DNA of 32,000 bases, from assembly GCF_000981785.2 (NCBI RefSeq), contig NZ_CP011304.1:3480001-3512000 (forward strand). Reading direction: 5' to 3'. This document shows positions 2,353-31,818 of the stretch, in pieces. The number at the start of each line of letters is the position of its first letter. Position 1 is the first letter of the stretch. A program made the position numbers and the translations under genes. Source of the DNA: Microcystis aeruginosa NIES-2549. GTDB lineage: Bacteria; Cyanobacteriota; Cyanobacteriia; Cyanobacteriales; Microcystaceae. A model generated the notes under the pieces. The model was not told where the DNA came from. It was given only the letters and a program-made list of their open reading frames with translations, and did no database searches.

Positions 2353-3000
2353 TTAATTAATAGCTTTATGGGCAATTGTGGCTATTTCTTTGGCGGCTTT
2401 TTCCTTCCTTTCACTATAGCGATCGGTCAGATAATCTACCTGATCTCGCAGGAGAATGGTAAACTTATAAAGTTCCTCCATCACATCAATAACTCGATCT
2501 CGATAGGGGGAATCTTTCATCGTGCCATCCTCGTGAAACTCCTGATAAGCTTTAGCCACCGAAGATTGATTAGGAATAGTAAACATTCGCATCCAACGAC
2601 CAAGAATTCGCAGAGTGTTAACCGCATTAAAAGATTGGGAACCTCCGCTTACTTGCATAACTGCTAAAGTGCGGCCTTGGGTAGGTCTAACCGCACCAAT
2701 ACTCAAGGGAATCCAATCAATTTGGTTTTTGATAATGCCGCTAATATTGCCGTGAAGTTCGGGAGATGACCAGACTTGACCCTCAGACCATTGACTTAAT
2801 TCTCGTAATTCTTGCACCTTGGCATGAGTATCGGGAACACTGCCATAAATCGGCAATTCACGCGGATCAAAAAAGCGCACTTCTGCCCCATATTCAGTGA
2901 TAATTCTGGCCGCTTCTTCTGCTAATAAACGACTGTAGGAACGTTCGCGTAAAGAACCATACAGGAAAAGAATTCTCGGTTTGTGAGTCGATTGGATCAT
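2353..3000 (-). CDS. arsH: Arsenical resistance protein ArsH (NADPH-dependent FMN reductase)
   Basis: The 215-aa product has [17 protein letters not shown] and [10 protein letters not shown] motifs typical of ArsH. It lies between acr3 and arsC. Confidence 0.9.
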
Positions 3001-3009
3001 GGTGAATAA

Positions 3010-4155
3010 TTATTTATAAGAACTCAAGCAACGAGGATCAAGAAGGGTGGCTTTTTCTGGATCTCTGGGAAACCAAAAGGCGGTTTTTTTACAGAATTCT
3101 ACCAACATTAACATCACAGGTACTTCAATCAATACCCCCACTACTGTCGCTAAAGCAGCCCCCGAATTCAATCCGAATAACATCACCGCAGTGGCGATCG
3201 CTACCTCAAAATGATTACTAGCACCAATTAAAGCAGCGGGAGCGGCATCTTCGTAAACTAAATTGAGTTTGAGAGCGGCCACATAACTAAGTAAAAAAAT
3301 CAGATTAGTTTGAATAAACAGGGGAATAGCAATCAGGAAAATATGCAGGGGATTACTAACAATTAAATCGCCTTTGAAAGCAAAGAGGAGGATTAAGGTT
3401 AACAATAAGGCAGTGATTGCCACAGGACTGAGATAGTGAAGAAAACGCGATTCAAACCAGGCCCGTCCTTTATGTTTAAAAATCCAGTGACGGCTATAGA
3501 TACCAGCAATAAGCGGTAAACCAACGTAGATTAACACAGAAAAAACAATGGTCTGCCAGGGGACTACAAAATTATTAGCTGCCAGTAACCATTTACCTAG
3601 GGGAGCGTAGAGAAAAAGCATCGCTAGGGAATTGACTGCTACCATAATTAGGGTATGACCCTGGTTACTGTAGGAAAGATAGCCCCACATCAAGACCATG
3701 GCCGTGCAGGGAGCAATTCCTAGTAAAATAGCTCCAGCAGTGTAGGAACTAGCTAAACTTACCGTCTGTCCTCGGATAATCTCCGTTTGACTCAACCAAG
3801 GCAGAAACAGCCAGCCGAGAAAAAATTGAGCCAGCGCCACCATGGTAAAGGGTTTGATCAGCCAATTAACCACTAAAGTTAAAATAACTGGTTTGGGAGT
3901 ACGGGCAGCCCGGAGAGCCTGAGAAAAGTCGATCTTAACCATGATCGGATACATCATGAAGAAAAGACAGATGGCGATCGGAATAGAAACGTTATAGATA
4001 CTCATGGCATCTAAAGTCTGCGCTACGTCCGGAAATGACCGACCGAGGGCAATTCCCGCCAAAATACAGAAAATAACCCAAAGGGTAAGATATTTTTCAA
4101 AAACACTCAGGCTACCACCAGCTTTGGCGGCTTTAGGATTGATTTGATTAGTCAT
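3010..4155 (-). CDS. acr3: Arsenite efflux permease, ACR3 family
   Basis: Polytopic membrane protein with ACR3/bile-arsenite-riboflavin transporter-like sequence ([31 protein letters not shown]). The track start 4194 is TTG. The ATG at 4155 (MTNQINPK) is preferred. Confidence 0.88.
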
Positions 4156-27011: not shown

Positions 27012-27401
27012 TTATTCTTCTTTATCGCTACTATCTTCCACAACTTCAGCGCCGGAGGTAGCAGCAGTGGCGACTAGGGTTTTACCGTTATAATTGATTG
27101 AATCAATCATAAAACGGGTAATTTCTTGACGATGACCGCGTTTTTTACGAGTTTTCTTTTTCGGGCGCATTTTATAGACAATAACTTTTTTGCCCCGACG
27201 ATGTTGCATGACAGTGCCTTCCACGGTAGCCCCTTCGATAAAGGGCTGACCGATGCTAATATCATCCTCATCATGGATTAATAGCACTTTGTCGATGGTA
27301 TGGGTACTTTGTTCATCGACGGGAAGAAGTTCGATATCGTAATAGCGACCGGGTTCCACCCGAATCTGTTTGCCACCGGTCTCAATAATCGCGTAACTCA
27401 T
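27012..27401 (-). CDS. rplU: 50S ribosomal protein L21
   Basis: [18 protein letters not shown]...KKRGHRQ is canonical L21. It lies upstream of rpmA. Confidence 0.95.
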
Positions 27402-27596: not shown

Positions 27597-28517
27597 ATGG
27601 AACAGTGGGAAAGCAGAGGACACCTGTTAACCGAACAAATTAACCCAAACAGCCTCAATTTAGACCAATTAAACCCACTCGAATTGGTGGATCTCTTCAA
27701 TCGCGAGGATGCCCAAACCCTAAAAGCGATCGCCATGGCCCGGCAAGAATTGGCCCTAGCGATCTCCCTGACCGGTCAAGCTCTGGCTAAAGGTGGTAGA
27801 CTCTTTTACATTGGGGCGGGAACCAGTGGCCGGCTGGGGGTTTTGGACGCGGCCGAATGTCCTCCCACCTTCTGCACTCCCCCGGAATTGGTACAGGGAA
27901 TTATTGCCGGTGGAGCGGCGGCGCTGGTGCGTAGTTCCGAAGATTTGGAGGATAAAGCGGAAGATGGGGCGGCCGTGATTGCCCAGCGAGAAATTCACGA
28001 ATTAGACGTGGTAGTGGGGATTACCGCCGGGGGTACTACTCCCTACGTTCACGGGGCTTTACAGGCGGCAAAACAGCGAGGTGCGACGACGATTGCTATT
28101 AGTTGTGTCCCCGCCGAACAAGTGGAGATCGCGGTGGATGTGGATATCCGCTTATTGACCGGACCAGAACTTCTGGCCGGCTCCACCCGCCTGAAAGCGG
28201 GAACAGTGACGAAAATGGCTTTAAATATCCTTTCCACAGGGACAATGGTCATGTTAGGCAAGGTTTACGGCAACCAGATGGTCGATGTGGCTGTTACTAA
28301 TCATAAACTCCATGACCGCGCCCTGCGGATTATCTGTAACCTTAGCGATATTAGTCGTGAGGAAGCGGCAATTTTACTGGAAAAAAGTGGCCGCCGGGTT
28401 AAACTGGCTTTGTTAATGCAGAAAACGGGACTTTCGGCGGCGGCAGGACAAGAATTGTTACAAAAGCATCGGGGTCAATTACGGGCCGCCCTGCAAGCTT
28501 ATAATCAAATTGATTGA
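27597..28517 (+). CDS. murQ: N-acetylmuramic acid 6-phosphate etherase
   Basis: SIS domain GAGTSGRLGVLDAAECPPTF and GSTRLKAGTVTKM are MurQ hallmarks. Confidence 0.9.
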   Translation: MEQWESRGHLLTEQINPNSLNLDQLNPLELVDLFNREDAQTLKAIAMARQELALAISLTGQALAKGGRLFYIGAGTSGRLGVLDAAECPPTFCTPPELVQGIIAGGAAALVRSSEDLEDKAEDGAAVIAQREIHELDVVVGITAGGTTPYVHGALQAAKQRGATTIAISCVPAEQVEIAVDVDIRLLTGPELLAGSTRLKAGTVTKMALNILSTGTMVMLGKVYGNQMVDVAVTNHKLHDRALRIICNLSDISREEAAILLEKSGRRVKLALLMQKTGLSAAAGQELLQKHRGQLRAALQAYNQID

Positions 28518-28544: not shown

Positions 28545-30035
28545 ATGGTTAATATTTCTTCGGAAATTGCTGCGGTCGCTGTTATTTTCCTCGTCGCTGG
28601 TGCTATCTTGACTTGGAGTTTTTATCGAGCTAAACCCTACGGCCAACTGGGAATTTTACCTTGGTTACAATCCTTGGTACTAATTGCTCCTTGGTTAATT
28701 TTTTTCGGGCTATTTGCGGCGGGAATTTATCTCAATCTAGCGGTAATTCTCTTTTTACTGGTTGCTTCCACCATTATCTATATTTATTTGGGCAACCGTT
28801 TACGCTTACTGAAAACCAATCAGATAATTGAACCGAAAGTTAACCCAGCAGTTAGCCAGTCCGTTACTCCTCTAGAAATCCCAGCAGCGGTGACAGCAAT
28901 TGTACCGGATGTGATGCCAATTACCGAAGAGGATTTAAAAGTTATTCAGAGCATTTTTGGGATAGATACTTTTTTTGCCACCGAGACTATCTCTTTTCAA
29001 GAAGGGGCTATTTTTAAAGGCAATTTACGAGGAGAACCGGATATGGTTCACTCTCGCTTAACCCAGAAATTAAGTAATCATTTTGGCGATAAATATCGTT
29101 TATTTCTGGTGGAAGGAACCGAGGAAAAACCTGTGGTAATTATCCTTCCCAAAACTAACGATCCTAGTCCTGCCACTCTTGCTCAAAAAAATCTCTCTTT
29201 AGTTTTGTTAGTAGCCACCATTGTCACCAGCTTAGAAGCGGCGGGAATTTTATTAGGTTTTGATTTGTTTAGTAATTGGCAGAGATATCGAGAAGCGATT
29301 CCCCTGAGTTTGGGTTTATGGTCGGTATTAATTGCCCACGAAATCGGTCATCTAATTATCGCTAAACGCCATAATGTTCGTCTCAGTTTACCCTATTTTC
29401 TTCCCACTTGGCAGATTGGTTCTTTTGGGGCGATTACTCGTTTTGAATCTTTATTACCTAACCGCAGTGTCCTATTTGATATAGCTTTCGCTGGTCCTGC
29501 TTTGGGAGGTTTAGTTTCTTTAATCTTATTAATTGTTGGACTAACTTTATCTAATTCTGCCAGCCTTTTTCAAATCCCTAGTACCTTTTTCCAAAGTTCG
29601 ATTTTAGTGAGTTTTTTAGCGCGGATAGTTTTGGGTGAAGAGTTACAAAATGCCGTTATCTCCGTGCATCCTTTAACTGTTATCGGTTGGTTGGGATTGG
29701 TGATTACCGCCCTTAATTTACTGCCCGCCGGACAGTTAGATGGTGGCAGAATTATTCAGGCTATTTATGGTCGCAAAATTGCCCGCCGTACCACTGTCGC
29801 CACTTTGGTCATTTTGGGCATTATTTCCTTAGTTAATCCCAGTAATCCCATTCCTCTCTATTGGACAATTTTAGTCGCTTTTTTACAAAGAGAGTTGGAA
29901 AGACCTAGTTTAAATGAGTTAACCGAACCCGATGACAACCGCGCTGGTTGGGGTTTATTACTACTCTTTTTAATGTTGGCGACTCTGATTCCTTTAAGCC
30001 CTAGTTTAGCGGGACGGTTAGGCATAGGTGGCTAA
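28545..30035 (+). CDS. Site-2 protease family (M50) intramembrane metalloprotease
   Basis: HEIGH (HExxH) in a TM helix and NLLPAGQLDGG (the LDG motif) in a later helix. Polytopic, 496 aa. Confidence 0.85.
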   Translation: MVNISSEIAAVAVIFLVAGAILTWSFYRAKPYGQLGILPWLQSLVLIAPWLIFFGLFAAGIYLNLAVILFLLVASTIIYIYLGNRLRLLKTNQIIEPKVNPAVSQSVTPLEIPAAVTAIVPDVMPITEEDLKVIQSIFGIDTFFATETISFQEGAIFKGNLRGEPDMVHSRLTQKLSNHFGDKYRLFLVEGTEEKPVVIILPKTNDPSPATLAQKNLSLVLLVATIVTSLEAAGILLGFDLFSNWQRYREAIPLSLGLWSVLIAHEIGHLIIAKRHNVRLSLPYFLPTWQIGSFGAITRFESLLPNRSVLFDIAFAGPALGGLVSLILLIVGLTLSNSASLFQIPSTFFQSSILVSFLARIVLGEELQNAVISVHPLTVIGWLGLVITALNLLPAGQLDGGRIIQAIYGRKIARRTTVATLVILGIISLVNPSNPIPLYWTILVAFLQRELERPSLNELTEPDDNRAGWGLLLLFLMLATLIPLSPSLAGRLGIGG

Positions 30036-30079
30036 ATACTTCCCCGAAATTCTTGCCATTGATTACCGTCAAAAAAAGC

Positions 30080-30109
30080 TTGACAAAAACTCAAGTCTTG
30101 ACTTATAAT
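30080..30109 (+). promoter_or_regulatory. Candidate promoter of repeat-protein gene A
   Basis: TTGACA (30080-30085), an 18-nt spacer, then TATAAT (30104-30109), preceded by an A7 tract. The motif TCAAAAAAGCTTGAC...CTTGACTTA..TATAATT recurs at 31367-31395. Confidence 0.45.
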
Positions 30110-30214
30110 TTTCTTATAATGGGAATCCGTGTCCGCCTATAGACCCCTGATTTTTCCGTAAAATATAGCCTCCAGCATTTACCCCTGAAGATTTGACTTT
30201 TGGAGTTGCTCAAA

Positions 30215-30613
30215 ATGTCTAACGAAACTGTCACTTATTCCCTAGAAGCTGTCCTGACAAGGATTGAGGGGAAAATCGACTCTCTGGAAAAACGCCTTGA
30301 CGAGAAAATCGACTCTCTGGAAAAACGTATTGACGAGAAAATCGACTCTCTGGAAAAACGTATTGACGAGAAAATCGACTCTCTGGAAAACCGTATTGAC
30401 GAGAGATTTGACAAGATAGAAGACCGGTTAACTAAAGTAGAAATAGGACAGGCCGAACTCAAGGGAGATATTAAAGCTTTAGACGAAAAAATCAATGGAT
30501 TAACTGCAAGGGTTGCCTATCAGGAATTCACCAATCGAGGGATTCTGATAGCACTGGTGGTCGCTATTTTAGGAGGTGCCGCTAAACTTTTTGGTTTTTT
30601 CCCTAATCCTTAG
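30215..30613 (+). CDS. Tail-anchored coiled-coil protein with four 11-residue tandem repeats (EKIDSLEKRID)
   Basis: ATG at 30215 after GGAG (the track start 30200 is TTG). Repeats span 30272-30403. The C-terminal hydrophobic segment is GILIALVVAILGGAAKLFGFF. Confidence 0.7.
   Translation: MSNETVTYSLEAVLTRIEGKIDSLEKRLDEKIDSLEKRIDEKIDSLEKRIDEKIDSLENRIDERFDKIEDRLTKVEIGQAELKGDIKALDEKINGLTARVAYQEFTNRGILIALVVAILGGAAKLFGFFPNP
30272..30403 (+). repeat. 4 x 33-bp in-frame tandem repeat
   Basis: Units start at 30272, 30305, 30338 and 30371. Units 2 and 3 are identical, unit 1 differs at 2 nt and unit 4 at 1 nt. Confidence 0.95.
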
Positions 30614-30722
30614 AAGTTGCCGGTAGCCGTACCTAGTAGATAGGCTCTTCCCCAAAATTTTTCGCTCATTACCCCGATCATCCGTTAGAATAGATTCAGA
30701 ATTCAAGGATAAAATCTCATCT

Positions 30723-31301
30723 ATGAATCCCGTTGTTTTGGTGCATGGTTTTCTGGACACTACGGCTGTTTTTAAACCGATGAGCGAGTATTTAAATTAT
30801 CATGGTTGGCAGGTGCATAGTTTTAACCTAATTCCCAATCATGGTTACGAAAAGTTAGAAGTTTTAGCCAGTCAGGTGGAGAATTATATCGAGAAAAACT
30901 TTGCTAAAGAGCAGAAAGTAGATCTGATTGGGTTTAGTATGGGAGGATTAATTACCCGCTACTACCTGCAAAGATTGGGAGGAGTGGCAAGAGTGCAACG
31001 TTACCTAAATATTTCTGCTCCGAATCGAGGCACTTTAACCGCGTATAGTTTACCCTTAGATGGGATTAGACAAATGCAGCCGGGGAGTCAATTTCTAGAG
31101 GATTTAAATCAAGATTGTCAACAAATTTTAAATAAAATTAAAACCACAATTATCTGGACTCCCTACGATTTAATGATATTTCCCGCCCATAGTTCCCGTT
31201 TATCGGTGGGCAAAGAAATTTCGATTCCCGTATTGCTTCATGCTTGGATGGTCAAAGATAGCAAAGTTTTAACAACAATTAAAGAGACCTTATTAGAATA
31301 G
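30723..31301 (+). CDS. Alpha/beta-hydrolase lipase/esterase (small LipA-like, no signal peptide)
   Basis: NPVVLVHGF at the N-terminus and nucleophile elbow GFSMGG resemble minimal Bacillus LipA-type lipases. The 192-aa product starts directly with the core fold. Confidence 0.75.
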   Translation: MNPVVLVHGFLDTTAVFKPMSEYLNYHGWQVHSFNLIPNHGYEKLEVLASQVENYIEKNFAKEQKVDLIGFSMGGLITRYYLQRLGGVARVQRYLNISAPNRGTLTAYSLPLDGIRQMQPGSQFLEDLNQDCQQILNKIKTTIIWTPYDLMIFPAHSSRLSVGKEISIPVLLHAWMVKDSKVLTTIKETLLE

Positions 31302-31376
31302 AAATACTGGTTGTCTCCAATACCGGAACAAGGTCAAAATATGACCAATAAAAACGTTAATTATCATCAAAAAAGC

Positions 31377-31394
31377 TTGACTTAACGTTATAAT
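31377..31394 (+). promoter_or_regulatory. Conserved upstream element of repeat-protein gene B (TTGACT-N6-TATAAT)
   Basis: Shares TCAAAAAAGCTTGAC and CTTGACTTA..TATAATT with the element upstream of gene A. The hexamer spacing here is non-canonical, so the -35 assignment is uncertain. Confidence 0.3.
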
Positions 31395-31428
31395 TGTGCT
31401 AGGCGATCAAATTCCCCTAGGTGTCACC

Positions 31429-31818
31429 ATGTCCACTCAAGAACCCACCCTAACCGATGTTCTCAACGAATTGAAAAGCTTCCAAACAGCAGTAAATCAA
31501 CGTTTTGAAGCGATAGACCAAAGTTTTGAGGCTATAGACCAACGTTTTGAAGCGATAGACCAACGTTTTGATGCTATGGGGCAACGTTTTGAGGAAATAG
31601 ACCAACGTTTTGATGCTATGGGGCAACGCTTTCAGGAAATAGACCAAAGATTAGACAAACTCGACTATAAATTTGACACCTACGAAAAAGCCTCCGAGAA
31701 AGTGCTGAGATTGGCCACGACAATTATTATCGCAGCCGCCACCGTAGCGGTTTTACCCTCGGCCTTTCAGGCAATCGGTCCCCTATTAACCCAAATCATC
31801 GCCGCCGGCAATAACTAA
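31429..31818 (+). CDS. Tail-anchored coiled-coil protein with seven 7-residue tandem repeats (QRFEAID/QRFDAMG)
   Basis: ATG at 31429 (MSTQEPTLTDVL); the track start 31396 is upstream. Repeats span 31498-31644. The C-terminal hydrophobic segment is LATTIIIAAATVAVLPSAFQAIGPLL. Confidence 0.7.
   Translation: MSTQEPTLTDVLNELKSFQTAVNQRFEAIDQSFEAIDQRFEAIDQRFDAMGQRFEEIDQRFDAMGQRFQEIDQRLDKLDYKFDTYEKASEKVLRLATTIIIAAATVAVLPSAFQAIGPLLTQIIAAGNN
31498..31644 (+). repeat. 7 x 21-bp in-frame tandem repeat with 42-bp higher-order unit
   Basis: Units 1 and 3 are identical, as are units 4 and 6. The 42-bp block 31561-31602 is repeated at 31603-31644 with 3 mismatches, all in its second 21-bp unit. A degenerate eighth unit lies at 31645-31665. 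Confidence 0.95.

What the first reader, a model, noticed from the sequence alone, without database searches (positions are those of the whole stretch)
30069..31818. Two repeat-built tail-anchored proteins with a shared upstream motif bracket a signal-less lipase, just downstream of a site-2 protease
Seen in sequence: genes 30215..30613 and 31429..31818 have the same architecture. Each has a short N-terminus, an array of near-identical in-frame tandem repeats (11-residue EKIDSLEKRID x4 in one, 7-residue QRFEAID/QRFDAMG x7 in the other), more coiled coil, and one C-terminal hydrophobic helix. Both are preceded by TCAAAAAAGCTTGAC...CTTGACTTA..TATAATT (30069-30110 and 31367-31395). Between them lies a 192-aa LipA-like alpha/beta hydrolase (GFSMGG) with no signal peptide. 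An M50 site-2 protease ends 180 nt upstream of the first gene. Inference: the shared upstream motif suggests co-regulation. The repeat segments could act as length-variable membrane-anchored stalks or scaffolds for the lipase. Single-pass proteins with N-in topology are the class of substrate that S2P enzymes cleave. The 11-residue KID-x-LEK repeat plus hydrophobic tail also resembles my recollection of Borrelia Bdr proteins. I know of no described function for such a module in cyanobacteria.
Basis: partly seen in the sequence, partly recalled or inferred. Interest (0 to 1): 0.7.

Follow-up and report, generated by a model that had tools for sequence, protein, structure and literature searches.

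The report
Two variable-length tail-anchored coiled-coil proteins
Two small membrane-anchored rod proteins of the bloom-forming cyanobacterium Microcystis change length between strains by gaining or losing in-frame repeats, but they belong to two unrelated families, and I found no evidence that they form a unit with the lipase or protease genes beside them.

Summary
In detail: every coordinate, repeat, motif and gene is as described. The window is Microcystis.

TA2 (31429-31818) is a clear member of NCBIfam NF053525, 'ssr2422 family thylakoid membrane protein' (80.6 bits, cutoff 38). Its DQRFExI heptad has expanded to 7 copies here. It has 3-7 copies in other Microcystis strains and about 0-6 in other cyanobacteria.

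TA1 (30215-30613) belongs to a different, unnamed cyanobacterial family. Members include Synechocystis Slr7073 and Slr5051, and a tandem array of paralogues near pilin genes in Microcystis. TA1 does resemble Borrelia Bdr proteins (33% identity over 125 aa; 404 Borrelia plasmid hits), but it lacks the N-terminal domain by which NCBIfam recognises Bdr. The conserved modules of TA1 and TA2 are not detectably homologous (hhalign probability 5.7%).

The gene order S2P-TA1-lipase-TA2 holds only within Microcystis. The nearest relative examined, Pannus, has S2P-ABM-lipase-acetyltransferase with no tail-anchored genes. Fourteen other cyanobacterial lipase loci, three further S2P loci and eight other TA-family loci show no co-occurrence.

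The shared upstream element is non-random (1 of 2000 shuffles reaches its score) and is promoter sequence, but its spacing to the -10 box differs between the two genes.

Most likely reading: two independent cytoplasm-facing coiled-coil stalks whose length drifts by repeat slippage, not a lipase/S2P module. Function remains unknown.

The parts
28545..30035 (+). Site-2 protease (M50, EGY-type, HEIGH present). It is a neighbour, not shown to be functionally linked.
   Evidence: Pfam Peptidase_M50 77 bits. EGY3_M plus M50 in precomputed annotation. The MurQ-S2P pair is conserved in Pannus, Rippkaea, Crocosphaera and Gloeothece.
30039..30068 (+). Left copy of a ~30-nt direct repeat (CTTCCCCGAAATTCTT...ATTACC) that brackets the promoter+TA1 cassette.
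   Evidence: the repeat finder D8, 88% over the 16-nt core. The extension was read from the sequence.
30059..30084 (+). Shared upstream element, copy 1 (TTGATTACCGTCAAAAAAAGCTTGAC).
   Evidence: (D7). Conserved in Microcystis strains.
30080..30109 (+). Consensus sigma-70-type promoter of TA1: TTGACA, 18 nt, TATAAT (12 of 12 positions).
   Evidence: Promoter scan. In strains L007 and L009 the rearrangement breakpoint lies just after this -10 box.
30215..30613 (+). TA1: a 132-aa tail-anchored hendecad coiled-coil protein, a member of an unnamed cyanobacterial Bdr/XhlA-like family.
30263..30404 (+). TA1 repeat array: 33 nt x4.3, encoding (E/G)KIDSLEKR(L/I)D x4. Copy number is 2-4 in other strains.
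   Evidence: D2.
30542..30598 (+). TA1 C-terminal hydrophobic anchor (residues 110-128, ILIALVVAILGGAAKLFGF), followed by FPNP.
   Evidence: KD19 2.36. Invariant in Microcystis paralogues. It is the family-wide conserved module.
30647..30676 (+). Right copy of the ~30-nt direct repeat that brackets the TA1 cassette.
   Evidence: D8; sequence read.
30723..31301 (+). LipA-type minimal alpha/beta-hydrolase lipase (GFSMGG), with no signal peptide.
   Evidence: Homologues at 48-66% identity in 14 other cyanobacterial species. Literature on sll1969.
31357..31381 (+). Shared upstream element, copy 2 (TTAATTATCATCAAAAAAGCTTGAC).
31389..31394 (+). TATAAT box upstream of TA2. TTGACT lies only 6 nt upstream, so there is no canonical -35 spacing.
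   Evidence: Sequence. Not reported by the promoter scan. Invariant across strains.
31429..31818 (+). TA2: a 129-aa ssr2422-family tail-anchored heptad coiled-coil protein. Gene callers use GTG at 31396, giving 140 aa.
   Evidence: NCBIfam NF053525 80.6 bits against cutoff 38. The family alignment supports the ATG start. AF2 model.
31498..31649 (+). TA2 repeat array: 21 nt x7.1, encoding QRF(E/D)(A/E)(I/M)(D/G). Copy number is 3-7 in other strains.
   Evidence: D1.
31711..31767 (+). TA2 hydrophobic anchor (residues 95-113, LATTIIIAAATVAVLPSAF). It is the most conserved part of the ssr2422 family.

Best explanation
The two ORFs are real, independently transcribed genes. They encode two unrelated kinds of small tail-anchored protein.

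Shared design:
- A short conserved N-terminal cap.
- A long, uninterrupted alpha-helical coiled-coil stalk, roughly 11-16 nm if fully helical (my estimate at ~0.15 nm per residue).
- A conserved membrane-proximal module.
- One C-terminal transmembrane helix.
- No signal peptide and almost nothing beyond the anchor, so the stalk should project into the cytoplasm from a membrane.

Identity:
- TA2 is the Microcystis member of the cyanobacteria-wide ssr2422 family, which NCBI calls a thylakoid membrane protein.
- TA1 is a dispersed member of a multi-copy cyanobacterial family. The family's nearest described look-alikes are Borrelia Bdr proteins and phage XhlA.

Length variation:
- In both proteins the stalk is made of near-identical in-frame DNA repeats (33 nt and 21 nt). 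Replication slippage or unequal recombination expands and contracts them.
- Stalk length therefore differs between otherwise nearly identical strains, in steps of about 1.6 nm for TA1 and about 1 nm for TA2 (my estimate). The cap and anchor stay essentially unchanged.
- Inferred: the proteins work as oligomeric membrane-anchored spacers or tethers. The conserved ends carry the specific contacts, and stalk length is either tolerated or tuned.

Genomic position:
- Their placement around lipA and downstream of the S2P gene looks like a Microcystis-lineage arrangement. TA1 sits with its own promoter between ~30-nt direct repeats in an older MurQ-S2P...LipA synteny.
- It is not a conserved functional module.

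Shown: gene reality, family membership, helical-rod prediction, repeat copy-number variation, lack of conserved co-occurrence.
Inferred: N-in topology, oligomerisation, spacer/tether role, slippage mechanism.
For: TA2 family:
- TA2 scores 80.6 bits against NF053525, cutoff 38.
- Alignment A2 shows a near-invariant YKFDTYEKAS..RLATTIIxAAATVAVLPSA core, with about 0-7 heptads among members of 73-155 aa.

TA1 family:
- 1091 relatives were found; the top 120 are nearly all named Microcystis, with lengths in repeat-sized steps.
- The C-terminal 70 aa alone finds 236 50%-identity cluster representatives at E<=1e-3 and 67 at E<=1e-10. They share ...GQAElKGdIKaLDEKvdGlgKRldNQEFiNRGiLigLivAilGGaAKlFGfvgNP at the C-terminus, and each lineage amplifies its own 7-, 11- or 18-residue unit.
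- Synechocystis Slr5051 is 36% identical end to end, E 2e-28. Slr7073 is detected as a protein by Grad-seq and described as entirely uncharacterized.

Repeat copy number:
- At this locus TA1 has 2-4 hendecads and TA2 has 3-7 heptads, while the lipase between them is 97-100% identical and the caps and anchors are nearly invariant.
- Microcystis paralogues in a tandem array differ almost only by unit counts in three repeat modules.

Rod shape:
- AF2 gives single long helices.
- Hydrophobic periods are 3.65 (11/3) for TA1 and 3.52 (7/2) for TA2.

The two are unrelated: hhalign probability 5.7% between the conserved modules. BLASTP gives only 17% identity in the coil.

Own promoters: a 12/12 consensus promoter before TA1 and a conserved TATAAT before TA2.

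No module:
- Pannus has L27-L21-MurQ-S2P-ABM-LipA-GNAT without TA genes.
- Fourteen other lipase loci are negative.
- S2P loci of Rippkaea, Crocosphaera and Gloeothece are negative.
- Some Microcystis strains lack TA1 (L007, L009, L014, L021) or have no TA2 detected (L002/L011) at the locus.
Against: - No expression, localisation or topology data exist for Microcystis. 'Thylakoid' rests only on the NCBIfam family name.
- The gene order S2P-TA1-lipase-TA2-rplI holds in most Microcystis genomes sampled, so a genus-specific functional link cannot be excluded.
- The two promoters share a statistically non-random 25-nt element.
- Both anchors contain conserved helix-destabilising residues (GG in TA1, P in TA2). 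From general knowledge, S2P substrates tend to have such residues.
- The spacer/tether role is an inference from architecture only. Oligomeric state was not modelled.
Confidence: 0.6

Rival explanations
1. TA1 and TA2 are co-regulated membrane scaffolds that position the cytoplasmic lipase on a membrane, and/or they are tail-anchored substrates of the adjacent S2P, whose cleavage releases the stalks.
For: - The gene order is conserved in most Microcystis strains.
- The shared promoter element is non-random.
- N-in single-pass topology with very short exoplasmic tails would let an S2P act without site-1 trimming. This is an inference from general knowledge of S2P.
- GG and P lie within the anchors.
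- S2P and LipA are also neighbours in Pannus.
Against: - Pannus has the S2P-LipA neighbourhood without any TA gene.
- 14 of 14 other lipase loci and 3 of 3 other S2P loci lack TA genes.
- 8 TA-family loci elsewhere lack both the lipase and the S2P.
- Microcystis strains exist with TA1 replaced (L007, L009) or TA2 not detected (L002/L011) beside an identical lipase.
- The shared element sits at different distances from the -10 box in the two promoters.
Confidence: 0.1
2. TA1 is a domesticated mobile-element gene of the XhlA/Bdr type. It would be a membrane-active accessory protein of phage or plasmid origin, for example a holin-associated, exclusion or defence-related factor, and the paralogue array diversifies it in an arms race.
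For: - Pfam XhlA scores 38.3 bits against a cutoff of 34.7.
- phrog_7090 scores 42.4 bits and aligns through the C-terminal anchor.
- Bdr genes lie on cp32 prophage plasmids.
- Homologues sit on Synechocystis, Stanieria and Gloeothece plasmids, next to cas1-cas2 and an XhlA-family gene on pSYSA.
- A homologue of Ssl7074 lies in a Synechocystis 6714 prophage.
- The locus is a rearrangement hot spot carrying toxin-antitoxin and NACHT/TIR genes in some strains.
Against: - No homologue was found in 50,697 phage genomes beyond weak coil matches, or in IMG/VR apart from fragments.
- PADLOC gives only coiled-coil noise.
- No holin or endolysin lies nearby.
- Close relatives (Slr7073, Slr5051, the 92-aa paralogue) fall below the XhlA cutoff, so the Pfam hit may reflect composition.
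- The stalk is predicted to be cytoplasmic, not exposed to phage.
Confidence: 0.15
3. The repeat ORFs are not functional genes. They would be open frames created by tandem DNA repeats or decaying pseudogenes.
For: Repeats of 21 and 33 nt automatically preserve frame. The opposite strand also carries open frames through the repeats. Some array copies are interrupted by a ~110-nt insertion.
Against: - The non-repeat caps and anchors are conserved at protein level across strains, and the anchor modules across cyanobacterial orders.
- A curated family HMM matches.
- Slr7073 protein has been detected.
- Promoter and Shine-Dalgarno-like sequences are present.
Confidence: 0.02

Closest known systems
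Borrelia Bdr (Borrelia direct repeat) proteins
   Same: - An 11-residue KID-type repeat (KIDSLEKRIDE versus KIDNVEKNLNV), then a colinear L-x-x-DI-x-x-LD-x-KIN-x-L segment, 'NR', and a C-terminal hydrophobic anchor.
- 33% identity over 125 aa. The non-repeat part alone gives E 3e-5.
- The hit is specific: TA1 finds 404 Borrelia/Borreliella plasmid records, while TA2 finds one.
- Both are multi-copy families with length polymorphism through repeat number. Both are inner-membrane associated with unknown function.
   Different: - TA1 lacks the Bdr N-terminal domain, the one NCBIfam model the Bdr control hits (NF040500: 92.8 bits in Bdr, absent from TA1's 25 best hits).
- Its KID score is borderline (21.0 versus 46.7 for Bdr).
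- It is chromosomal, or in tandem arrays, rather than on cp32 or linear plasmids.
- Homology is plausible but not proven, because repeat and coil composition inflates scores.
ssr2422 family thylakoid membrane protein (NCBIfam NF053525)
   Same: TA2 matches at 80.6 bits against a cutoff of 38, over HMM positions 16-77. It shares the EPTLTDVL cap, the DQRFExI heptads and the YKFDTYEKAS..LATTIIxAAATVAVLPSAFQAIGPLLTQ module.
   Different: Only the number of heptads differs: 7 here, and about 0-6 in the other cyanobacterial members seen. I found no paper describing a function; one literature search for the name gave only an unrelated hit.
Synechocystis sp. PCC 6803 Slr5051 (pSYSM) and Slr7073 (pSYSA)
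   Same: These are true homologues of TA1, with the same cap, the same C-terminal module ending in FPNP or LPTS, and internal 11-residue repeats.
   Different: - They amplify a different unit (LDEKLTGQIKA).
- They are plasmid-borne and sit in an EPS (xss) cluster and beside CRISPR2 cas1-cas2.
- Both are uncharacterized. Slr7073 co-fractionates with CRISPR2 crRNAs in Grad-seq.
XhlA of Bacillus prophage PBSX (Pfam PF10779)
   Same: A small coiled-coil protein with one C-terminal membrane helix. TA1 scores 38.3 bits against a cutoff of 34.7. Ssl7074, next to Slr7073, scores 37.6.
   Different: XhlA works with the holin XhlB and the endolysin XlyA in a lysis cassette, and no such genes are present here. 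Close TA1 relatives fall below the cutoff.
Bacillus subtilis LipA and Synechocystis Sll1969 (LipA), for the gene in between
   Same: A minimal lid-less alpha/beta hydrolase with a GxSxG motif. PDB LipA matches at E about 1e-9 from residue 2. It is 58% identical to the 202-aa Synechocystis salina protein.
   Different: It has no signal peptide, unlike the secreted Bacillus enzyme. That fits the proposed role of cyanobacterial LipA in turnover of the cell's own membrane lipids. That role still lacks biochemical proof.

Membership tests
ssr2422 family thylakoid membrane protein (NF053525), for TA2 | Whole-protein HMM score at or above the curated cutoff | tested here: met
   80.6 bits against cutoff 38, E 8e-23.
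ssr2422 family thylakoid membrane protein (NF053525), for TA2 | Conserved C-terminal YKFDTYEKAS...RLATTIIxAAATVAVLPSA module at the end of a 70-160-aa protein | tested here: met
   Alignment A2 has F82, R94 and L109 invariant and 17 nearly invariant columns in this module.
ssr2422 family thylakoid membrane protein (NF053525), for TA2 | Localisation in the thylakoid membrane | not testable with these tools
   Rests only on the family name. No paper was found.
ssr2422 family, for TA1 | HMM score at or above the cutoff, or profile-profile similarity of the conserved module | tested here: not met
   16.7 bits against cutoff 38. hhalign probability 5.7%.
Borrelia Bdr family, for TA1 | KID repeats (Pfam PF02524) at or above the gathering score | tested here: inconclusive
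   21.0 bits against cutoff 20.8, with no single repeat significant on its own. An authentic Bdr scores 46.7.
Borrelia Bdr family, for TA1 | Conserved Bdr N-terminal domain (NCBIfam NF040500 Bdr_N_group2 and relatives) | tested here: not met
   The Bdr control scores 92.8 bits. The model is absent from the 25 best TA1 hits shown (E up to 0.013). TA1 has an 18-residue cap unrelated to it.
Borrelia Bdr family, for TA1 | C-terminal hydrophobic membrane anchor and repeat-number length polymorphism in a multi-copy family | tested here: met
   Tandem paralogue array.
Borrelia Bdr family, for TA1 | Significant full-length sequence similarity to Bdr proteins | tested here: met
   tblastn E 1e-8 to 1e-15 over about 95% of the query in 404 Borrelia/Borreliella plasmid records. 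BLASTP E 2e-16. Caveat: repeats inflate the significance.
XhlA (PF10779), for TA1 | Pfam score at or above the gathering score | tested here: inconclusive
   TA1 scores 38.3 against 34.7. Its homologues Slr7073, Slr5051 and the 92-aa Microcystis paralogue give no hit at E<=1e-4.
XhlA (PF10779), for TA1 | Location in a phage lysis cassette with holin and endolysin | tested here: not met
   The neighbours are S2P, lipase, pilins and ispD. No phage-genome homologues.
Site-2-protease substrate (regulated intramembrane proteolysis), for TA1 and TA2 | Single-pass, N-in orientation with helix-destabilising residues in the membrane helix | tested here: inconclusive
   Single C-terminal hydrophobic helix, no signal peptide, GG (TA1) and P (TA2) in the helix. 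Orientation is inferred, not measured.
Site-2-protease substrate (regulated intramembrane proteolysis), for TA1 and TA2 | Conserved genomic association with the protease | tested here: not met
   0 of 4 non-Microcystis S2P loci carry a TA gene. 0 of 8 other TA-family loci carry an S2P.
Site-2-protease substrate (regulated intramembrane proteolysis), for TA1 and TA2 | Protease-dependent cleavage | not testable with these tools
   Needs an experiment.
LipA-type lipase (Pfam Lipase_2 PF01674), for the gene 30723-31301 | Pfam score at or above the cutoff, a GxSxG nucleophile elbow, and similarity to solved LipA structures | tested here: met
   40.7 bits against 20.3. GFSMGG. PDB 1i6w and related entries at E about 1e-9.

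The most novel reading that the evidence does not exclude
The cyanobacterial TA1 family, Borrelia Bdr proteins and phage XhlA may be one ancient class of tail-anchored hendecad coiled-coil 'ruler' proteins. Their cytoplasmic stalk length would be deliberately diversified by repeat slippage. In Microcystis it would also be diversified by a tandem array of paralogues of graded length (92 to 146 aa). The purpose would be to set a distance at a membrane, or to provide a graded set of intramembrane-protease-releasable signalling stalks. If so, Microcystis and Synechocystis would give a tractable system for the function of Bdr, which a 2023 review still describes as undiscovered.
Probability: 0.12. 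Interest if true: 0.65.

Novelty: new variant of a known kind. Interest (0 to 1): 0.35.

Why it matters
The findings correct several misleading annotations. Sources label TA1 relatives 'DUF4164', 'phosphomannomutase', 'chromosome segregation ATPase' or 'apolipoprotein'. Gene callers also start TA2 at a GTG that lies just after its TATAAT box.

The findings also show that an attractive-looking lipase/S2P 'module' is lineage-specific synteny.

On the positive side, they define an uncharacterized cyanobacterial family of tail-anchored proteins with a conserved cap and anchor and a hypervariable repeat stalk. Members are present in the genetically tractable Synechocystis 6803 (Slr5051, Slr7073). 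The family gives the first non-spirochaete relatives or analogues I am aware of for Borrelia Bdr proteins, whose function a 2023 review calls undiscovered.

The 7- and 11-codon repeats are also practical strain-typing markers for Microcystis blooms, because copy number differs between strains whose flanking genes are nearly identical.

Tried and rejected
- Rfam over the whole window gave no hit, so no known riboswitch or sRNA lies in the ~100-nt TA1 leader.
- PDB sequence searches with TA1 and TA2 returned only generic coiled coils (spike HR1, apolipoprotein A-IV, designed coils). Neither protein has been seen in a solved complex.
- PADLOC gave only coiled-coil noise (LeoA, LmuB, JetA at 16-25 bits).
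- GenBank phage genomes and IMG/VR gave no convincing homologue of either protein.
- I rejected Pfam and NCBIfam hits to Apolipoprotein, Phasin, DUF4164, Baculo_PEP_C, SMC, Rad50 and EzrA as compositional. All are far below or barely at cutoff and align only to the coil.
- I tested whether TA1 and TA2 are paralogues and rejected the idea.
- I checked whether the shared upstream element is a family-wide promoter. The array paralogues have a different upstream region, and the element was found only at these two positions in the fetched loci.
- Literature searches for ssr2422, for Microcystis plus Bdr, and for tail-anchored proteins in Synechocystis found nothing on function.
- Cluster look-up for taxonomy of distant TA1 relatives was uninformative: mostly unnamed metagenome proteins, one labelled Cyanobacteria.
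- Foldseek was not run, because single-helix models give meaningless matches.

Full report
**1. What is in the sequence**

The 3' end of the window reads, all on the + strand except L21:
- ribosomal L21 (minus strand, 27012-27401)
- a MurQ-like SIS protein (27597-28517)
- an M50 site-2 protease with HEIGH (28545-30035)
- TA1 (30215-30613)
- a 192-aa lipase (30723-31301)
- TA2 (31429-31818)
- the start of rplI (from 31889)

The best protein matches are all Microcystis. One assembly contig, GCA_977968235.1, carries TA1, the lipase and TA2 at 100% identity.

- A 33-nt unit x4.3 (94% matches) encodes (E/G)KIDSLEKR(L/I)D four times.
- A 21-nt unit x7.1 encodes QRFEAID / QRFDAMG seven times.
- Each protein has a single, strongly hydrophobic 19-residue segment at the extreme C-terminus. 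Four residues (TA1) or 16 residues (TA2) follow it. The rest of each protein is highly charged.
- The lipase has GFSMGG. It aligns from its second residue to residue 4 of mature Bacillus LipA, so it has no signal peptide.

AlphaFold2 predicts TA1 as one continuous helix, residues 3-125 (pLDDT 84.5). It predicts TA2 as helix 8-82 (pLDDT mostly above 90), a short break at FDTYEKA, then the anchor helix.

The hydrophobic period is 3.65 residues in TA1 (11/3, a hendecad coil) and 3.52 in TA2 (7/2, a classical heptad coil). The two stalks therefore have different geometry.

**2. The shared upstream element**

The element is longer than reported: TTGATTACCGTCAAAAAAAGCTTGAC (30059-30084) against TTAATTATCATCAAAAAAGCTTGAC (31357-31381).
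- The local alignment of the two intergenic regions scores 14.5, against 8.1 +/- 1.2 for dinucleotide shuffles. One of 2000 shuffles reaches that score.
- It is present in nearly all Microcystis strains fetched, with single-base variants in four.

Upstream of TA1, its TTGACA is the -35 box of a perfect consensus promoter: TTGACA, 18 nt, TATAAT. Upstream of TA2, the same TTGAC lies only 6 nt from an invariant TATAAT, so it cannot act as a -35 box there.

The two regions look like related promoter DNA. TA1's version carries an extra 18 nt, including a second CTTGAC. They do not look like a transcription-factor site held at a fixed position. Co-regulation remains untested.

The element survives after the S2P gene in strains where TA1 is gone. 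In L007 and L009 the sequence diverges just after the -10 box, and a kinase-GUN4 gene follows.

The family alignment supports the ATG at 31429 as the TA2 start. The GTG at 31396 used by gene callers begins just after the TATAAT box.

**3. What TA2 is**

TA2 matches NCBIfam NF053525, 'ssr2422 family thylakoid membrane protein', at 80.6 bits against a cutoff of 38.

Relatives of 73-155 aa from Nodosilinea and many unnamed cyanobacterial assemblies share three parts:
- an EPT(L/I)(T/A)DVL cap
- about 0-7 copies of a DQRFExI heptad
- a near-invariant YKFDTYEKASDKLVRLATTIIVAAATVAVLPSAFQAIGPLLTQ tail

The anchor is the most conserved part, which suggests a specific contact within the membrane. This is an inference.

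Non-cyanobacterial hits (Nonomuraea, Azospirillum) share only the RFEAIDQ repeats and have no anchor.

I found no paper on ssr2422.

**4. What TA1 is**

TA1 is not an ssr2422 protein. It scores 16.7 bits against that model, and hhalign between the conserved modules gives probability 5.7%.

TA1 has about 1100 relatives. The top 120 are almost all from Microcystis, with lengths that differ in repeat-sized steps.

A second Microcystis locus carries a tandem array of these genes between ispD / a hexapeptide transferase and pilin genes.
- One strain has seven copies of 92, 114, 121, 135 and 146 aa plus two interrupted copies, each about 86 nt apart.
- The copies differ almost only in the number of three units: EKIDSLEKRMD, ERFDKVD and GELKGDIKVLDEKIEGLK.

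Searching 1.8 billion cluster representatives with only the non-repeat C-terminal 70 residues finds 236 clusters at E<=1e-3.
- They share ...GQAELKGDIKALDEKVDGLGKRLDNQEFINRGILIGLIVAILGGAAKLFGFVGNP at the C-terminus and a TVTYSLEEVL / IETDLKEIL cap.
- Each lineage has amplified a different 7-, 11- or 18-residue unit.

A tblastn search against 72,556 plasmids gave homologues on Synechocystis 6803 pSYSM, on pSYSA, and on Gloeothece and Stanieria plasmids.
- The pSYSM gene is slr5051, inside the xss exopolysaccharide cluster. It is 36% identical end to end, E 2e-28.
- The pSYSA gene is slr7073, directly after CRISPR2 cas1-cas2.

Slr7073 is reported as a detected but 'entirely uncharacterized' protein that co-fractionates with CRISPR2 crRNAs.

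**5. The Bdr resemblance**

The same plasmid search hit 404 Borrelia/Borreliella records. All 13 such records listed among the top 25 lie on bdr or Bdr-like genes (one is annotated apolipoprotein-family, one unannotated), at 32-36% identity over about 95% of TA1 (E 1e-8 to 1e-15).

TA2, used as a control, hit one Borrelia record. The match is therefore not generic coiled-coil noise.

Pairwise comparison with the cp32-9 Bdr of strain B31:
- 33% identity over 125 residues (E 2e-16).
- The order is colinear: KID repeats, then L-x-x-DI-x-x-LD-x-KIN-x-L, then 'NR', then the anchor.
- The non-repeat part alone gives E 3e-5.

Limits on the match:
- Pfam KID is borderline for TA1 (21.0 against 20.8) and clear for Bdr (46.7).
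- The only NCBIfam Bdr model the control protein hits is an N-terminal-domain model (NF040500, 92.8 bits). TA1 has no such domain.

My conclusion is that TA1 is Bdr-like in design, and possibly a distant relative of the Bdr repeat-plus-anchor part, but it is not a member of the Bdr family as currently defined. Bdr proteins are inner-membrane associated and their function is still unknown.

The Pfam XhlA hit (38.3 against 34.7) is equally borderline and is not shared by TA1's close relatives. No holin or endolysin context exists, and no phage homologues were found. PHROG 7090, of unknown function, does align through the anchor at 42.4 bits.

**6. Repeat copy number**

Across Microcystis contigs whose lipase is 97-100% identical:
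- TA1 at this locus has 2, 3 or 4 hendecads (about 103-132 aa; one strain has a diverged QKIDTLQQDVN unit).
- TA2 has 3-7 heptads (101-129 aa).
- The caps and anchors are nearly invariant.

This is the pattern expected from slippage or unequal exchange between near-identical 33-nt and 21-nt units. The mechanism is inferred.

**7. Is there a module?**

Within Microcystis, the order L21-MurQ-S2P-TA1-lipase-TA2-rplI is the common one. There are exceptions:
- TA1 is replaced by a kinase-GUN4 gene and two ParE-like pairs in L007 and L009.
- TA1 is absent from the locus in L014 and L021.
- In L002/L011 there is a TA1-plus-lipase-5'-end duplication, and no TA2 match was found.

Outside the genus the association disappears:
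- Pannus brasiliensis (S2P 78% identical) has L27-L21-MurQ-S2P-ABM protein-lipase-acetyltransferase. The S2P-lipase neighbourhood therefore occurs without either TA gene.
- Lipase homologues (48-66% identity) in 14 other cyanobacterial species have no S2P, TA1 or TA2 within 5 kb by tblastn, and no tail-anchored charged ORF within about 2.5 kb.
- The S2P loci of Rippkaea, Crocosphaera and Gloeothece keep MurQ upstream but have NdhH, a solute-binding protein or a proline-rich ORF downstream.
- ssr2422-family genes elsewhere sit next to a DNA polymerase exonuclease-domain gene, after psbC, or on a contig with Bro-N and HTH genes.

A ~30-nt direct repeat immediately after the S2P stop and after the TA1 stop brackets the promoter-plus-TA1 cassette. 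This is consistent with insertion into an older intergenic region (inference).

**8. The lipase**

The lipase is of the Sll1969/LipA type. The Synechocystis salina protein is 58% identical and 202 aa long.

The literature treats this as a putative intracellular lipase that releases fatty acids from the cell's own membrane lipids, still without biochemical proof. The absence of a signal peptide is therefore expected and needs no scaffold to explain it.

**9. Most likely mechanism and rivals**

Best supported reading: two unrelated tail-anchored, cytoplasm-facing coiled-coil stalks, each with its own promoter. Their conserved ends carry function, and their length drifts or is tuned by in-frame repeat slippage. 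The likely role is an oligomeric spacer or tether at a membrane, which for TA2 would be the thylakoid according to its family name.

The structural and evolutionary statements are shown. Topology, oligomerisation and the spacer role are inferred.

Rivals:
- The lipase/S2P module. It has weak positive points: conserved order within the genus, the shared promoter element, and GG / P in the anchors.
- A mobile-element-derived XhlA/Bdr-like membrane-active or defence factor, for TA1. It is supported by plasmid, CRISPR and prophage contexts of relatives, but not by PADLOC, phage genomes or IMG/VR.
- Spurious ORFs, which is very unlikely.

**10. Novelty and verdict**

- TA2 is a member of an already curated but functionally unstudied family.
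- TA1 is a new, Bdr-like variant of the 'repeat stalk plus tail anchor' design, in a family that has no name or literature.
- The proposed module is not supported.
- The most interesting residue is the possible link to Bdr and XhlA, together with the graded paralogue array. I did not find either described in the paper searches I ran.

Interest is moderate to low, at 0.35.

Noticed in passing
L057 708-3775 (also L052, L053, L056, L058); Microcystis contigs outside the window: A tandem array of up to seven TA1 paralogues (92-146 aa, ~86-nt spacers) lies between ispD / a hexapeptide transferase and pilin (N_methyl/Pilin_GH) genes. The copies differ almost only by copy number of three repeat units. 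The number of genes in the array also varies between strains, from 1 to 7.
   Followed up: partly
L057 2186-2295 and 3759-3868: An identical ~110-nt insertion (gtaagtagtcatgc...gcttaggtac) splits two array paralogues within the GDIKV|LDEK codons and truncates them to 82 aa. It looks like a small non-autonomous mobile element. It is absent from the window. A similar end sequence sits just upstream of the TA2 promoter region in L013.
   Followed up: partly
L002 / L011 about 2990-3460 (Microcystis Ma_SC_T_19800800_S464): A tandem duplication: TA1 fragment, then the first 18 codons of the lipase, then TA1, then the lipase. No TA2 match was found in this strain; downstream are ParE/Phd genes and a giant NACHT/TIR/HEAT-repeat gene. 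This points to a rearrangement hot spot.
   Followed up: no
L007 633-700 and L009 75-140: The TA1 promoter is retained after the S2P gene, but the sequence diverges just after the -10 box. The promoter now faces a Ser/Thr kinase-GUN4 gene, followed by two ParE-like toxin-antitoxin pairs.
   Followed up: partly
L002, L011, L020: TA1 5' leader: An ~85-nt insertion in the TA1 leader lies between 'gatttgactttt' and 'gggagttgctcaaaATG'. The leader therefore tolerates large insertions.
   Followed up: no
window 30039-30068 and 30647-30676: A ~30-nt direct repeat (CTTCCCCRAAATTYTT..CATT..TTACC) lies immediately 3' of the S2P stop and 3' of the TA1 stop. It brackets the promoter+TA1 cassette.
   Followed up: partly
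window 31396-31428: Gene callers start TA2 at GTG 31396 (140 aa, and 112-133 aa in other strains). That start lies just after the TATAAT box. Homologues from other genera support the ATG at 31429.
   Followed up: yes
L084 (Pannus brasiliensis), L085-L087: The MurQ-like SIS gene directly upstream of this EGY-type S2P is conserved in Microcystis, Pannus, Rippkaea, Crocosphaera and Gloeothece. This is a much better candidate for a functional pairing with the protease than the TA genes.
   Followed up: no
L066 5001-5642 (Synechocystis 6803 pSYSA 66223-66864): slr7073 (TA1 family) and the convergent ssl7074 (Pfam XhlA 37.6 bits, ends in LPNP) lie side by side right after CRISPR2 cas1-cas2. So there are two tail-anchored coiled-coil genes at a CRISPR adaptation module.
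   Followed up: partly
L061 (GCA_964453975.1 contig, 5.9 kb): A 78-aa ssr2422-family gene with no heptad expansion sits among many small unknown ORFs plus HTH and Bro-N genes. This may be a phage-like or mobile context.
   Followed up: no
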